A stretch of 64,000 nt of DNA from Octopus sinensis. Taxonomy: Eukaryota. The notes under the pieces were generated by a model. That model saw only the letters and a list, made by a program, of their open reading frames with translations, did not search any database and was not told where the DNA came from. This document shows positions 11 through 34,670 of the stretch, in pieces (position 1 is the stretch's first letter; each line of letters begins with the position of its first letter). Position numbers and translations under genes: made by a program. The stretch lies in contig NC_042999.1 in assembly GCF_006345805.1 (NCBI RefSeq), forward strand, positions 17,112,001-17,176,000. The letters run 5' to 3'.

Positions 11-233
11 GTATCAATAATAATATAGGGTGAAATTAATTAATTGGAATAATCATTAATTTCATCAAGTAGATTTCGGCATGTAAAAGCCCCATTCAGG
101 AAGGTTTAAGTAATACTAAGTAATTAAGGGTTTAGCAACGATTTGCCTCACCACACACCGGATTTAGAAATAGCAGTCAAAAGAGTTTGACTGCTATTTC
201 TAATCCGGTGTGTGGTGAGGCAAATCGTTGCTA
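11..233 (-). mobile_element. Fold-back element in a (TA)n tract, probable 3' end of a Penelope-like element (inverted pseudo-LTR plus tail)
   Basis: Near-perfect inverted repeat 133-181/186-233, unique tail 11-132, (TA)n on both sides. Shares the TTTGRCTGCTATTTCTA motif and the CACCCTATATT terminus with the hammerhead-bearing element at 2356-3022. Confidence 0.7.
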
Positions 234-602
234 TATATATAATATATATATATATATTTATATATATGTATATATATCTATATATTTATATAAAAAACAT
301 ATATATAATAAGGACAAATTTTTAGCACACATGGTTTTTTATTAACCACGTATTAATGAAAATGTATTCATAAATAAAGTACAGAACTGGGAATCACTAT
401 TATCAGTTTATCCTAGATACAAGTGAATTCGGCCTAGCCTGGCCTAGAGAGACATTTAATTCGACTTAAGTCGTGTCTCATGGAACCAATTAACGACGTA
501 GGGGGAGACTATATATATATATATATATATATTAATATATATATATATATAATATATATATTACGTTTTGGTATGGTGTAAAGGTAGGGTATTTCTAGAG
601 AA

Positions 603-829
603 GCGAGCTGGCAGAACCGTTAGCACGCCGGGCGAAATGCTTAGCGGTATTTCGTCTGCCGTTACGTTCTGAGTTCAAATTCCGCCGAGGTTGACTTTGC
701 CTTTCATCCTTTTGGGGTCGATGAAATAAGTACCAGTTACGCACTGGGATCGAAGTAATCGACTTAATACCTATGTCTGTCCTTGTTTGTCCCCTCTGTG
801 TTTAGCCCCTTGTGGGTAATAAAGAAATA
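603..829 (+). mobile_element. tRNA-derived SINE, family B (GGCGGCGAGCTGGCAGAA head)
   Basis: Many homologous copies in the window; central GCCTTTCATCCTTTyGGGGTCGAT domain; target-site duplication GTATTTCTAGAGAAGC on both sides. Confidence 0.9.
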
Positions 830-982
830 TGTATTTCTAGAGAAGCACTCAACCCTAATTCGGGGCTATCAACACCGTCGGATTCCAGACTAATATCGAA
901 ATACTTCAGGTGTAGAAAATTCTGGTTTCACACCAGTAAATCTGCTGTGTGGGCTTTGCAAAGAGTAAAATATAATCCAAAT

Positions 983-1367
983 GGTGGAAGCACTCCGTCG
1001 GTTACGACGACGAGGGTTCCGGTTGATCCGAATCAACGGAACAGCCTGCTCGTGAAATTAACGTGCAAGTGGCTGAGCAATCCACAGACACATGTACCCT
1101 TAACGTAGTTCTCGGGGATATTCAGCGTGACACATGGAGTGACAAGGCCGGTTCTTTGAAATACAGGTACAACAGAAACAGGAAGTAAGAGTGAGAGAAA
1201 GTTGTGGTGAAAGAGTACAGCAGGGATCACCACCATCCCCTGCCGGAGCCTCGTGGAGCTTTAGGTGTTTTCGCTCAATAAACACTCACAACGCCCGGTC
1301 TGGGAATCGAAACCGCGATCCTATGACCGCGAGTCCGCTGCCCTAACCACTGGGCCATTGTGCTTCC
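983..1367 (-). mobile_element. tRNA-derived SINE, family A
   Basis: A box TGGCCCAGTGG and B box GTTTCGATTCC on the minus strand; near-identical to 44497-44880; TSD TATAATCCAAAT. Confidence 0.9.
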
Positions 1368-30128: not shown

Positions 30129-32322
30129 TAGTGGGTTGAATTATCAATGGATAACTCAATGGATGATATAGAATTATAATCAAACCAGCATAGTGTGATA
30201 CAGAGCTGGAAAAAAAAATTAATAATAGATAAGGATGTTTAACGCTACTATGTTGCTATGCTTCTCTGTATGATACAGAATGGAAGTATTTTCCGAAATT
30301 TCCCATAAAAGAAATCTGTGAATATAACTGTTTGTGTCTGTGGTATGTCATTTTACTACAAACCGAAGTCGTAAATTGCTTTGCCATCTAGGTACAAAAC
30401 AAGAATTAAACATACACACCTATATACATACACACATGCGCGTGCACACACATGCACACGTACAAAGATACAGCATCACTCAGGTATAGTTCCATGCGTA
30501 GGAACATGCACGTAAGCAACATTTTGTAACTGTGACAACACATAACACACACACATTCTCTTTCTATCTTTGTCAATTCCTGTGAGTATTCATATATATA
30601 TACATATGTACATGCATACGTATGTTATATAAATATATATATATATATATATAGAGAGAGAGAGAGGGAGAGATAGATAGATGATAGATAGATATACATA
30701 CATATATATACATACATATATATATAATATATATATATATATATACATACATATATATATATATATAATATATATATATATATATATATATATATATATA
30801 TATATATATATACATACATATATATACACACACACACACACACACACACACACATATATATATATATATATATATATATATATGTACGTGTGCAAGTTCG
30901 TAGATATACAAATTAATTCATGAAAATATAATACATGAGAAATGAAAGACTTCGTAATAGTCCAAATTTCAGTTAACAAGCAGCTACCCCTACGTTTTCA
31001 AAGAATAGTCATATAAAACGATACATTCAGCTGAGCATAACTCTGTGAGCATTAAATTTCGCTATAGTATTCAAAACTTGCGTAGGACGAAATGATGCAT
31101 AAAACATGTCTTCATAGCAATATCTACAAAATATTTCTCAATAAGCAGGGTATTTTATTCACGTCCATGAATATCGAGACTGGACACTGTGCGACATATA
31201 GCTGCCCTCAGCTGTATCAGTTTATGCGTAACTGTTAGCAGCTAAGTAAATTAGTGTATTTAATATACAAATACGTCGAGTATCTGAAATATTTGCTAGG
31301 CCGCAGCTTGTACTTTAAATTTTATCTTACGCCAGCTGTGTCTATCCATTTAAACTCGAATTCACTATAAATTTGGAAATGATATTTTATTTAATATGAT
31401 ATTTTTTAAATGTCATTGCTTGTCTAAATAAATGCAAACTGTCTGCTATATACAGATTTAATGAAAACATATTACTAATGCTTCACTACACACATTTGCT
31501 GTTAAGCTTTTAGTATTATAGCTTTGCTGATGAATTATTATATAACACATAAATAAACATCATGTAGCGAGCGTACGGCAGACATATTAATTTTATTTGG
31601 TTTGCAATATATTCATTTAAATCTAAAGGGAGATATACATGTTATATTTATATATGTATGATAATTGCATGCAGTAATTCCATTCGATCGATATGTCAGT
31701 ATGGTATAGTAATTAGCAAAAGATATCTTTTTCCGTATATTTTTTGTACTTTAGCTGTCCGTTGTTTGCCTGTCTATATTGACCCTCTTAATGATGTTTG
31801 CTGTGATATCGTAGATAAAATTAGTTACAGAAATAAATATTCGAAAATCTATTTCATATATGACCAGCAAAAATACAAACCGATTGGAAACATATAACGC
31901 GAGTATTCTTGTTTCCCACGAGGAATTTTAAAAGTAATGGTTAATACGTTTTATATATCTATGATATATGTCACTGACGGTATCTCTGCAGACCCCTCAG
32001 TTCGAATTAAGAAGTATGCTAGTTTGAGTTTGCAAATTTTCATGCCTTGTGTTACACTATATATTATGAATATCTGTATTGTAGGTACACGCAGCAAAAA
32101 TATCCGAAGACTTCCTACTAAACTTTTATTACAAGAAAGAATGTGAACGAAGGAAAGAGGTAAGTTTGGTAATCAACTTTAAATATGTGACTGATGCGAG
32201 ATGGCATTGCACATTAATTTAATCTTTCAATTTTCTATCCCCACGGTTACTATTACAGGAGAATTTTACATATGATGTATACACACACACACACACACAC
32301 ACATATATATATATAAATAATA

Positions 32323-32800
32323 GACGCAGGAGTGGTATGGTGGTAAGAAGCTTGCTTCCCAACCACATGGTTCCGTGTTCAGTTCCACTGCATGGCACCT
32401 TGGGTAAGTGTCTTCTACTATAGCCTCGTGCCGACCAACACCTTGTGAGTGGATTTGGTAGAGACAGAAAGTGAAAGAGGCCCTTCATACATACATACAT
32501 ACATACATCCATACATACACACTCACACACATATATATTTATACATATTTATATATATATATGTGTGTGTGTGTGTGTATGTGTGTGTATTTGTGTGTCT
32601 GTCTTTGTCCCCCAGCATCGCTTGACATCCGATGCTGGTGTGTCTACGTCGCCGTGAATTAGTGATTCAGCAAAATTGACCTATAGAATAAGTACTATAC
32701 TTACAAAGAATAGGTCCTGGGGCCGATTTGTTTGACTAAAGGCGGTGCTCCAACATAGCCGTAGTCTAATGACTGAAACAAGTAAAAGTGTAAAAGAATA
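32323..32800 (+). mobile_element. SINE family C
   Basis: Homologous to 46950-47422. Confidence 0.9.
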
Positions 32801-34421
32801 TATGTATACATATACAGACACACACACACACACACATATATATATATATATATGAATCACCTTCTTCATGAGATGTTACAATGTGAATCTAATCGTTGGC
32901 GGTTTAATGGAGAGGATCAGTCAATCAAATCTTGTATAAGGTGTCTTTCTTATCTCCGTGTTCGAAAAGTTTCACTTTTTAATCAGTAAACTATTTTATC
33001 TTTTTCCTGCTCACTCATTAGTCCAAGGTATTTATACGAGACAGTTAGCAGGCTCTCTCTCTCTCTCTCTCTCTCTCTCTCTGTACATACAATCATACAT
33101 ACATACATACATGCATACATTTATATATATATATATATATATATATATATATATACATACATACATAATATACTTATTGTACGTGTGTGTTTGTGTGTGT
33201 ACACATACATACATACATACATACTTATATATATATATATATATATATATATATATATATATATATATATATATATACATATACATATGTATGTATACCA
33301 TACTTTCACACATACATAAGCACATACACACACATGCACACACACGATATTGAAACACGTAGTAGATATTTACTGATTTACCAGATACTATTGCATTATT
33401 CGAGTGGAAAATCATGTGGTTTAGACCGAGAAGCTCTTTCTTATCAGCTTGGTATTAAAAAACAAACAAAAAAAAGAGTCGAGGATCAATACAGAATAAC
33501 CTCCACACAGGCTTTGATTAAATGCGATCATAGACTCTATCTCGATCCACAAAGAAAACTGCGGTTTATGTCATTAATACCAAAAAATTCTTTCGGAAAA
33601 ATGTACATAAAAACTGCTTGTTAAACAAATCATGTGATTGATAAAAACAGCTTACTGCTGGTGCTATTAGTTCATGTAATATGAAACAAGAAACGTATTT
33701 AACGATGTGTTACTATCTATTCAGATTAATGAGGTGTAAGAAACTAGTGACAACGAACAATGTAATTGCTGTTAGATGAGTGCAGTAATCTAACTATATC
33801 CAGCATCAATAGAATTAACCTTCGAGCGAATATATTACGTTTTAGTCTCATAAATCCACACATTTAACAAGAAATTATACAAAGGCTTGTAATTATTACT
33901 CAACGGGCTGTCGTTGTTCGCTAATATATAAGACATAAAATAATATCCACGAAACAAGCTTTATAAATATAATTTCCTTTACGTAATATTTGATACAATT
34001 AAAACAATTTAGACATAATGGGAAATATCTTGTTTCAAAGATAAGAATGGAGAAGATATAAGTGTGAGATACGCCCTACTGTAATTGATAACGAATGAAA
34101 TATTTAAAAAAAAAAGGAAGTGCACAATGAATTAATTTATGGGCAACAAGAGATGCTAACAATGAGACCACGAAGTAGGAAATGAATATAATTAATTAGA
34201 TTGTGCTGGTGCAACATTATGCAAATATTATGAAGTATAAGCGCAACTTGGCTGTGTGGTAAGAAGCTTGCTTCACAACCACATGATTCCAGGTTCAGTT
34301 TCACTGTGTGGCAATTTTGGCAAGTGTTTTCTACTATAGCCTCGGGTCGACCAAAGTCTTGTGAGCGGATTTGGTAGAGAGAAACTGAAAGAAGCAAGTC
34401 GTATATATATATATATATATA

Positions 34422-34670
34422 TTAAAATTATAATTTAGGGTATCTAAGAGATACCACCACACTGGAAATAGCAGCGAAAACTTGACTCTAACCCCACATT
34501 TAATGTGGTTTTAGTGTCAAGGTTTGGCTGCTATTTCCAGTGTGGTGGTATCTTTTTGATACCCTAAATTATAATTTTAAGAATTATTATTTCCTTTGAA
34601 GGCTTTTATTCCAGTGCTGGTCACTTGATAAGATCGATATTTAAATAAGGATCTTATCCTTATATAAAGT
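34422..34670 (+). mobile_element. Fold-back PLE-type 3' end in (TA)n
   Basis: Imperfect palindrome 34422-34580 (apex about 34501), tail to 34670, contains TTTGGCTGCTATTTCCAG. Confidence 0.7.

What the first reader, a model, noticed from the sequence alone, without database searches (positions are those of the whole stretch)
11..34670. Shared TTTGGCTGCTATTTCTAG motif and CCCT(T)ATA terminus across otherwise unrelated inserts
Four divergent elements keep the same sense-strand motif: TTTGACTGCTATTTCTA (186-203 and mirror), TTTGGCTGTTATTTCTAG (2862-2879), CTATTTCTAG (7202-7211, minus) and TTTGGCTGCTATTTCCAG (34523-34540). Where a hammerhead is present, the motif lies downstream of it. The 3' ends also converge: CACCCTATATT (22-32 minus; 3003-3013), CACCCTTATAC (24429-24439 minus), CTCCCTTATTT (7061-7071 minus), ATCCTTATATA (about 34656) and TTCCCGTTATA (about 52095 minus). 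Inference: these are conserved cis signals, such as a splice acceptor or promoter of the pseudo-LTR and an RT-initiation signal that anneals to nicked TA.
Basis: partly seen in the sequence, partly recalled or inferred. Interest (0 to 1): 0.7.

Follow-up and report, generated by a model that had tools for sequence, protein, structure and literature searches.

The report
Folded RNA landing pad of retrozymes
Four seemingly unrelated jumping repeats are distant relatives that keep the sequence pairing for one predicted RNA fold around the two places where their genomic copies end, which is likely the docking site for the copying enzyme of a Penelope-type retrotransposon rather than a splice signal.

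Summary
The motifs are real, but the four inserts are not unrelated. They are collinear homologues over about 170 nt: non-coding, hammerhead-bearing repeat families (490-600-nt units, tandem in three of the four) inserted head-to-head in TA microsatellites. A model built only from relatives of insert A finds B, C and D full length. The motif's 3' end, or the bases just after it, is one strand of an 8-9-bp long-range helix with compensatory changes (22 representatives, 94.9% paired, 6 of 8 pairs change on both sides, 0 of 500 shuffles). Each family has two C-rich end boxes; each closes a predicted hairpin 0-22 nt before copies stop. The splice-acceptor idea fails: 84 of 100 listed hits have AA, not AG, and the one spliced contig bypasses the motif. 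Elements at 24429 and 52095 lack the domain. Likely role: the RNA signal that positions a borrowed Penelope-type reverse transcriptase at two start sites; the partner enzyme was not found. The scan noted a similar reading before on another family in this genome (e1-10345043). New variant of a known kind.

The parts
11..233 (-). Insert A: head-to-head copy of a ~600-nt non-coding hammerhead unit; sense arm on minus, inverted arm 184-233
   Evidence: model hit 15-181, E 1.3e-26
164..181 (-). Motif, sense copy in A (ends in AA, no AG)
153..161 (-). A: 5' strand of the long-range helix
76..84 (-). A: 3' strand of the long-range helix
127..130 (-). A: proximal end box, closing hairpin 1
27..30 (-). 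A: distal (tail) end box, closing hairpin 2
2349..3022 (+). Insert B: head-to-head copy of a 491-nt tandem hammerhead unit; inverted arm to 2580 stops at the proximal end, direct arm at the distal end
   Evidence: model hit 2862-3020, E 4.1e-5
2692..2795 (+). B: type I hammerhead motif with long stem II; the direct arm has a changed cleavage triplet at 2787, the inverted arm is canonical
   Evidence: sequence; fold of 2700-2815, z -4.55, supports the long stem II only
2748..2753 (+). B: 5' splice donor inside hammerhead stem II; the homologous site of another B copy is used in one contig
2862..2883 (+). B: motif; 2876-2883 is the 5' strand of the long-range helix
2956..2963 (+). B: 3' strand of the long-range helix
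2905..2908 (+). B: proximal end box after hairpin 1
3005..3008 (+). B: distal end box after hairpin 2
7060..7562 (-). Insert C: copy of a 545-nt hammerhead unit; inverted arm 7497-7562; hammerhead about 7320-7400 with a donor-like site at 7360-7365
   Evidence: model hit 7055-7227, E 0.013
7197..7211 (-). C: motif core; 7197-7205 is the 5' strand of the long-range helix
7114..7122 (-). C: 3' strand of the long-range helix
7171..7174 (-). C: proximal end box
7066..7069 (-). C: distal end box
34425..34672 (+). Insert D: head-to-head copy, truncated 3' of the family's hammerhead; inverted arm 34425-34500
   Evidence: model hit 34523-34672, E 2.7e-6
34523..34545 (+). D: motif; 34537-34545 is the 5' strand of the long-range helix
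34611..34620 (+). D: 3' strand of the long-range helix (one extra base in this copy)
   Evidence: against family copies
34562..34565 (+). D: proximal end box after hairpin 1
34657..34660 (+). D: distal end box after hairpin 2
24420..26190 (-). Element E, not part of the superfamily: 5'-truncated, inverted copy of an autonomous Neptune-type Penelope-like element with a classical ~35-nt tail; shares only the C-rich box at 24429-24439
   Evidence: no model hit
52094..52310 (-). Element F, not part of the superfamily: short repeat end with a minimal hammerhead-like motif; shares only a C-rich end
   Evidence: related copies seen; no model hit

Best explanation
The motif and the C-rich ends are parts of one ~170-nt domain that non-coding hammerhead repeat families share, likely by descent; its compensatory base changes predict an RNA fold that is likely the signal placing a borrowed Penelope-type reverse transcriptase at two start sites. 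Layout, 5' to 3' on the hammerhead strand: hairpin ending in the motif's 5' half; long-range helix 5' strand; hairpin 1; end box 1; AT-rich linker; helix 3' strand; a second conserved box; hairpin 2; end box 2; AT-rich stretch. Shown: homology, pairing pattern, two ends, TA targets, head-to-head insertions. Inferred: the enzyme binds this fold and nicks both strands of a TA tract, and each nick primes cDNA in the AT-rich bases 0-22 nt past one box, giving arms that stop at end 1 and end 2.
For: Model from 11 A-type representatives recovers D, B, C over all 173 positions (E 2.7e-6, 4.1e-5, 0.013); its other 3 hits are inverted arms of A and D and a fragment of A (7 hits). RNAalifold on 22 B/C/D-type representatives predicts only this helix: 94.9% of 176 cells paired, 6 of 8 pairs with two-sided changes, 0 of 500 shuffles, slid controls 14-45%. 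Across 33 representatives 281 of 297 cells pair against 240 +/- 5 shuffled. One-sided changes are G-U on the hammerhead strand, which favours that strand and an RNA fold. In 11 A-type units the helix pair has probability >=0.99 in 9, the base pair closing hairpin 1 >=0.5 in 9 and hairpin 2 >=0.9 in 10. The mid-tail box alone occurs 9,326 times against 256. Copies end 0-22 nt past the boxes. Frangieh et al. (PMC11167929, parts 1-2 of 4 read) show that a PLE RT starts internally at two sites in a stem-loop, matching genomic ends and the tail.
Against: No autonomous element with this domain was found: not in 3 Neptune-type loci, and in Hydra-type loci the hits I could place are a passenger insert, while 3 other hits there (L290, L292, L295) were not examined. 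Single-copy folding is weak and not strand-specific: z -1.2, -3.9, -0.8, -1.9 for A-D sense against -0.3, -3.6, -2.0, -3.3 antisense. The shuffle controls ignore relatedness. Representatives were picked by motif or tail-box patterns, and the partner strand was chosen as best-pairing (2 rows mis-anchored, kept). Only 22 of 55 tail-box hits had the motif within 1 mismatch; the others were truncated, more diverged or chance. The pairs closing the hairpins are nearly invariant in A-types, so give little covariation. 38 of 54 exact 18-mer hits in 50 sampled loci fall in an old/other class, mostly one old repeat without TA tail. In vitro, PAc started at RNA sites not homologous to the cut DNA (PMC11167929), so annealing to TA is inferred only.
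Confidence: 0.65

Rival explanations
1. The motif's AG is the 3' splice acceptor of a pseudo-LTR intron.
For: Pyrimidine-rich context ending in AG in B, C, D; donor-like sites lie upstream in hammerhead stem II of A, B and C units, and the B donor is used in one contig. PLE 5'-UTR introns are known (PMC4209133, PMC8557442 passages).
Against: AA instead of AG in 84 of 100 listed hits and 10 of 11 A-type representatives; GG in 2 of 22 B/C/D-type ones. The spliced contig bypasses an intact motif about 130 nt after the donor and joins a host exon 11.6 kb away. Contigs bridge the motif unspliced in X1, X5 and X8 (table 8; table 8 record 21).
Confidence: 0.07
2. The motif is a DNA-level promoter or transcription-factor site; it resembles a MEF2 site with one mismatch (recalled, no call), which would tolerate AG or AA.
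For: The core keeps its primary sequence beyond what pairing needs (motif columns mean top frequency 0.85 against 0.65). The old repeat keeps the 18-mer without an evident tail. In tandem arrays the motif lies upstream of the next unit's hammerhead.
Against: Does not explain two-sided changes with a partner 75-100 nt away. A 5'-truncated B copy with no upstream motif still supplies a 5' exon. Not tested with any motif library or start-site data.
Confidence: 0.1
3. The fold serves RNA circle formation, stability or hammerhead control, and copies end near it only because AT-rich single-stranded bases there anneal to TA targets.
For: Tandem hammerhead units are known to give circular RNAs in other animals (PMC7229834, passages). 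Ends scatter over 0-22 nt of AT-rich sequence.
Against: The units are AT-rich throughout, yet ends cluster at two homologous hairpin bases in all four families.
Confidence: 0.13
4. The ends are recognised as DNA (endonuclease or cruciform site), as reported for the Drosophila Penelope tail.
For: PMC11167929 cites endonuclease recognition of plasmids that needed the tail; antisense folds are as stable as sense.
Against: G-U-type changes would be A-C mismatches on the other strand; an 8-bp helix enclosing about 100 nt is unlikely in duplex DNA (inference).
Confidence: 0.05

Closest known systems
Metazoan non-LTR retrozymes (Cervera and de la Pena 2020, PMC7229834, passages; Li, Clavereau and Pollet 2026, 10.64898/2026.07.22.740005, part 1 of 5 and passages)
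   Same: Non-coding tandem units with a type I hammerhead, thought to be mobilised by PLE enzymes.
   Different: Units of 490-600 nt with a long stem II that holds a splice donor; the passages read describe no conserved 3' fold ('secondary structure' and 'tail' 0 hits in the preprint).
PLE pseudo-LTR and tail; internal RT initiation of Poseidon PAc (Arkhipova 2013 PMC3846280 passages; Craig 2021 PMC8557442 passages and section 11; Frangieh 2024 PMC11167929 parts 1-2)
   Same: Two alternative 3' ends, inverted 5' arms, TA targets, hammerhead upstream, start sites at a stem-loop.
   Different: Tail about 95-105 nt, not 30-40; no ORF; ends marked by a helix conserved across divergent families; no autonomous partner found.
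LINE/SINE shared 3' stem-loop, e.g. eel UnaL2 (PMC1636434, search listing and start of abstract only)
   Same: A conserved RNA fold at the 3' end of non-autonomous elements recruits a partner RT.
   Different: PLE-type internal double initiation rather than priming at the RNA 3' end.
Telomerase RNA template domain (recalled, no call)
   Same: A closing long-range helix and a helix beside a C-rich box; PLE RT is sister to TERT (PMC8557442 abstract).
   Different: Here RT copies through the helices for hundreds of bases; no repeat addition shown; likeness only.

Membership tests
Non-LTR retrozyme | Type I hammerhead in each unit | tested here: met
   Core, stems and cleavage triplet read by eye in A, B, C family units, core and stems in D. 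Rfam listed no hammerhead among the 150 of 189 rows shown, likely because of the long stem II.
Non-LTR retrozyme | Head-to-tail tandem units | tested here: met
   B 486-492 nt, C 545-547, A 585-603, related families 529-582. No true tandem unit of D among the loci held.
Non-LTR retrozyme | No protein coding | tested here: met
   No ORF of 120 aa or more inside A-D; no tblastn match of PLE proteins in the units.
Non-LTR retrozyme | Self-cleavage and circular RNA | not testable with these tools
   Only assembled contigs were served.
Non-autonomous Penelope-like element | Two 3' ends (tail) and inverted 5' arms | tested here: met
   tail about 95-105 nt, longer than the published 30-40.
Non-autonomous Penelope-like element | Insertion in TA microsatellites | tested here: met
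Non-autonomous Penelope-like element | Homology to the pseudo-LTR of an ORF-bearing PLE | tested here: inconclusive
   Only two autonomous families examined; the Neptune-type has no domain; in the Hydra-type the placed hits are a passenger insert, absent from at least 9 of the copies displayed, and 3 hits were not examined.
3' splice acceptor | Invariant AG | tested here: not met
3' splice acceptor | Junction reads ending at the AG | tested here: inconclusive
   None listed, but contigs drop rare forms and the tables were cut.

The most novel reading that the evidence does not exclude
The domain is a telomerase-RNA-like template module for a Penelope-type RT: a closing helix and two helix-plus-C-box units present two templates to a dimeric enzyme, one per target strand. 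It lies inside an intron whose donor is in hammerhead stem II, so only unspliced RNA can be cut and copied, which would explain why these retroelements keep introns.
Probability: 0.15. Interest if true: 0.8.

Novelty: new variant of a known kind. Interest (0 to 1): 0.47.

Why it matters
How Penelope-type reverse transcriptases, the closest relatives of telomerase, pick their RNA and start at two internal sites is open; the one in vitro study narrowed it to about 150 nt without a conserved fold. Divergent parasite families that kept one pairing pattern point to exact base pairs to mutate and rescue. If right, it also gives a minimal cis-tag for trans-mobilisation and a model for classifying over ten thousand sites in this genome. 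The element class itself is already known.

Tried and rejected
Rfam scan: only microsatellite-driven miRNA hits below gathering score among rows shown. Direct-repeat finder swamped by microsatellites. Coding reading of the motif: no ORF. Self-hairpin around the motif's pyrimidine loop: fits B and the old repeat, not A or G (by eye). Neptune-type E and a Hydra-type family as partners: different ends. Run search: no RNA holder listed on record; 14 runs guessed RNA. No joint into the motif's AG listed for B (4 runs; 63 loose ends not shown) or C (4 runs; 20 not shown); contigs show presence, not absence. Look-up of earlier findings by sequence: nothing. Whether copies ever join telomeric repeats was not tested, so the telomerase likeness rests on recall. 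Literature: five searches showed no description of this fold; supplements were not opened, those of the bioRxiv preprint are closed, and the repeat library behind PMC13282606 (passages read; 0 hits for 'hammerhead') was not seen, so the families may be catalogued there or in Repbase.
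Full report
Setting. The window is G000:C3:17112001-17176000 in a 2.72-Gb animal genome, likely an octopus (inferred from repeat content, recalled; earlier scan notes use the same label). It is rich in TA microsatellites and repeats.

Observation. Five window sites match the 18-mer within 2 mismatches; two are inverted-arm mirrors, and the sense copy of insert A is 164-181 on the minus strand. Insert C shares only the last 10 letters. The exact 18-mer occurs 4,940 times in the genome against 0 for the control. 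Elements E (24420-26190) and F (52094-52310) have no such match.

What the inserts are. Searches with each insert returned families of 40 scored copies each, from 1,469-2,015 candidates. B is a 491-nt tandem unit with about 98% identity among top copies, C a 545-nt unit and A a ~600-nt unit; related units of 529-582 nt exist. No true tandem unit of D was among my loci. All four families carry a type I hammerhead motif upstream of the 18-mer, read by eye. Copies sit in TA runs as head-to-head arms, and each family has two fixed end regions about 95-105 nt apart; commonly one arm stops at each. Family sequence continues 0-22 nt past each C-rich box before the TA run, so the box is a landmark, not the terminus. 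This is the PLE tail signature (PMC8557442, PMC3846280, passages), which Frangieh et al. tie to two internal RT start sites (PMC11167929, parts 1-2 of 4).

Descent, not convergence. Fifteen representatives align collinearly from motif to distal box with further shared blocks. Of 55 distinct hits in 50 loci, 22 have the motif core within 1 mismatch upstream; the others are cut at inversion junctions, more diverged, or chance.

The fold. Single-sequence folds repeat one layout. For an alignment I kept 16 tail-box hits with intact upstream sequence plus 6 motif-found representatives and dropped truncated rows. RNAalifold predicts a single helix there. It joins the motif's last bases and the next five to the mid-tail: 94.9% of 176 cells paired, two-sided changes in 6 of 8 pairs (29 cells), 0 of 500 shuffles as high, slid controls 14-45%. 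Adding 11 A-types gives 281 of 297 cells paired against 240 +/- 5 (partner chosen as best-pairing, 2 rows mis-anchored and kept). In A-types the helix strand has moved a few bases 3' of the motif, and there the motif's final G is usually A. In A-types the first two C of each end box pair with two G at the base of a hairpin. Limits: relatedness is not controlled, and single-copy z-scores are modest and no better on the sense strand.

Splice acceptor. 84 of the first 100 listed motif-plus-end hits have AA, 16 have AG (my count). Two of 22 B/C/D-type representatives have GG, which keeps pairing as G-U. Laying four runs on a B dimer gave no joint to the motif, but one X1 contig leaves B at a donor in hammerhead stem II. 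Its loose end maps once in the genome, right after a canonical acceptor. A B copy with that donor lies 11.6 kb upstream on the same strand with its motif intact, and downstream frames match Pfam RRN3 (2 of 63 frames scanned, E 3e-8 and 1e-4). So the donor works and the motif was bypassed, in one contig of one run guessed to be RNA. For C, contigs of three runs bridge the motif unspliced.

E and F. E is a truncated copy of an autonomous Neptune-type element: RT plus GIY-YIG, 784-aa ORF, 35-nt tail ending about 35 nt before the first ORF's start, two ends as usual, no model hit. Its C-rich end may be a loose preference of PLE start sites or chance; I did not measure it.

Partner. Not found. A Hydra-type family (CxCX5C linker, as defined in PMC8557442 section 11) carries one family member in its 3' UTR, but in the wrong orientation and not in all copies; three other model hits in those loci were not examined.

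Mechanism. Most likely (0.65) the domain is the RNA signal by which these non-coding units borrow a PLE RT-endonuclease. The enzyme would bind the fold and nick both strands of a TA tract, and each nick would prime in the AT-rich bases after one hairpin-plus-box, giving two arms with different ends. Homology, pairing pattern, ends and targets are shown; binding, priming, cleavage and circles are inferred.

Novelty. Retrozymes, PLE tails and internal initiation are published. A helix conserved by compensatory change across divergent families around both ends was not found in five searches (supplements unseen). I formed this reading before looking up the scan's notes; one of them (e1-10345043) reaches a similar reading for a ~360-nt family, and several note the two ends. 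These are unchecked AI notes and not support. Verdict: real, a new variant of a known kind, interest 0.47.

Noticed in passing
G000:C6:39379106-39378795 (minus; L199) and exon at about C6:39367339 (L197): A B-family copy supplies a 5' exon, via the donor in hammerhead stem II, to the apparent first coding exon of a host gene whose downstream frames match RRN3; one contig in run X1.
   Followed up: partly
L049:135-1110 and L117:1060-1960 laid on runs X1, X5, X8, X12: Clustered A-to-G and T-to-C differences and loose ends in guessed-RNA contigs, largely absent from the large run X15, look like hyper-editing of double-stranded RNA from inverted copies; no same-individual DNA.
   Followed up: no
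window 24420-26190; full-length relatives L181, L182, L184: The Neptune-type element has two overlapping ORFs in -1 register with a T-rich heptamer at the overlap (possible frameshift, inferred), and a hammerhead with the U3-A8 core variant described in PMC4209133.
   Followed up: partly
window 34700-34905: Perfect hairpin insert next to D; the same sequence lies at the far end of Hydra-type elements (L019, L292), so it is likely their pseudo-LTR with its own hammerhead (matched by eye).
   Followed up: partly
L260-L289: A Hydra-type PLE subfamily has carried a small inverted family member in its microsatellite-rich 3' UTR through many insertions; sister copies lack it.
   Followed up: partly
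L001-L030, L071-L090: Most exact 18-mer hits (38 of 54, old/other class) lie in what is mainly one old, diverged repeat without TA tail; 5 of 54 lie in a palindromic repeat with Helitron-like ends (label by eye).
   Followed up: partly
G000:C3:17111727-17112233 (L051): Insert A and its inversion are duplicated in tandem at 284 bp just left of the window.
   Followed up: yes
window 24075-24321, 26277-26440 and 62912-63051: Further short palindromic inserts beside TA runs, unassigned.
   Followed up: no
window 603-835, 9898-10122, 29759-30130, 38165-38563, 59921-60163 and others: Many copies of two or three SINE-like families; label recalled.
   Followed up: no
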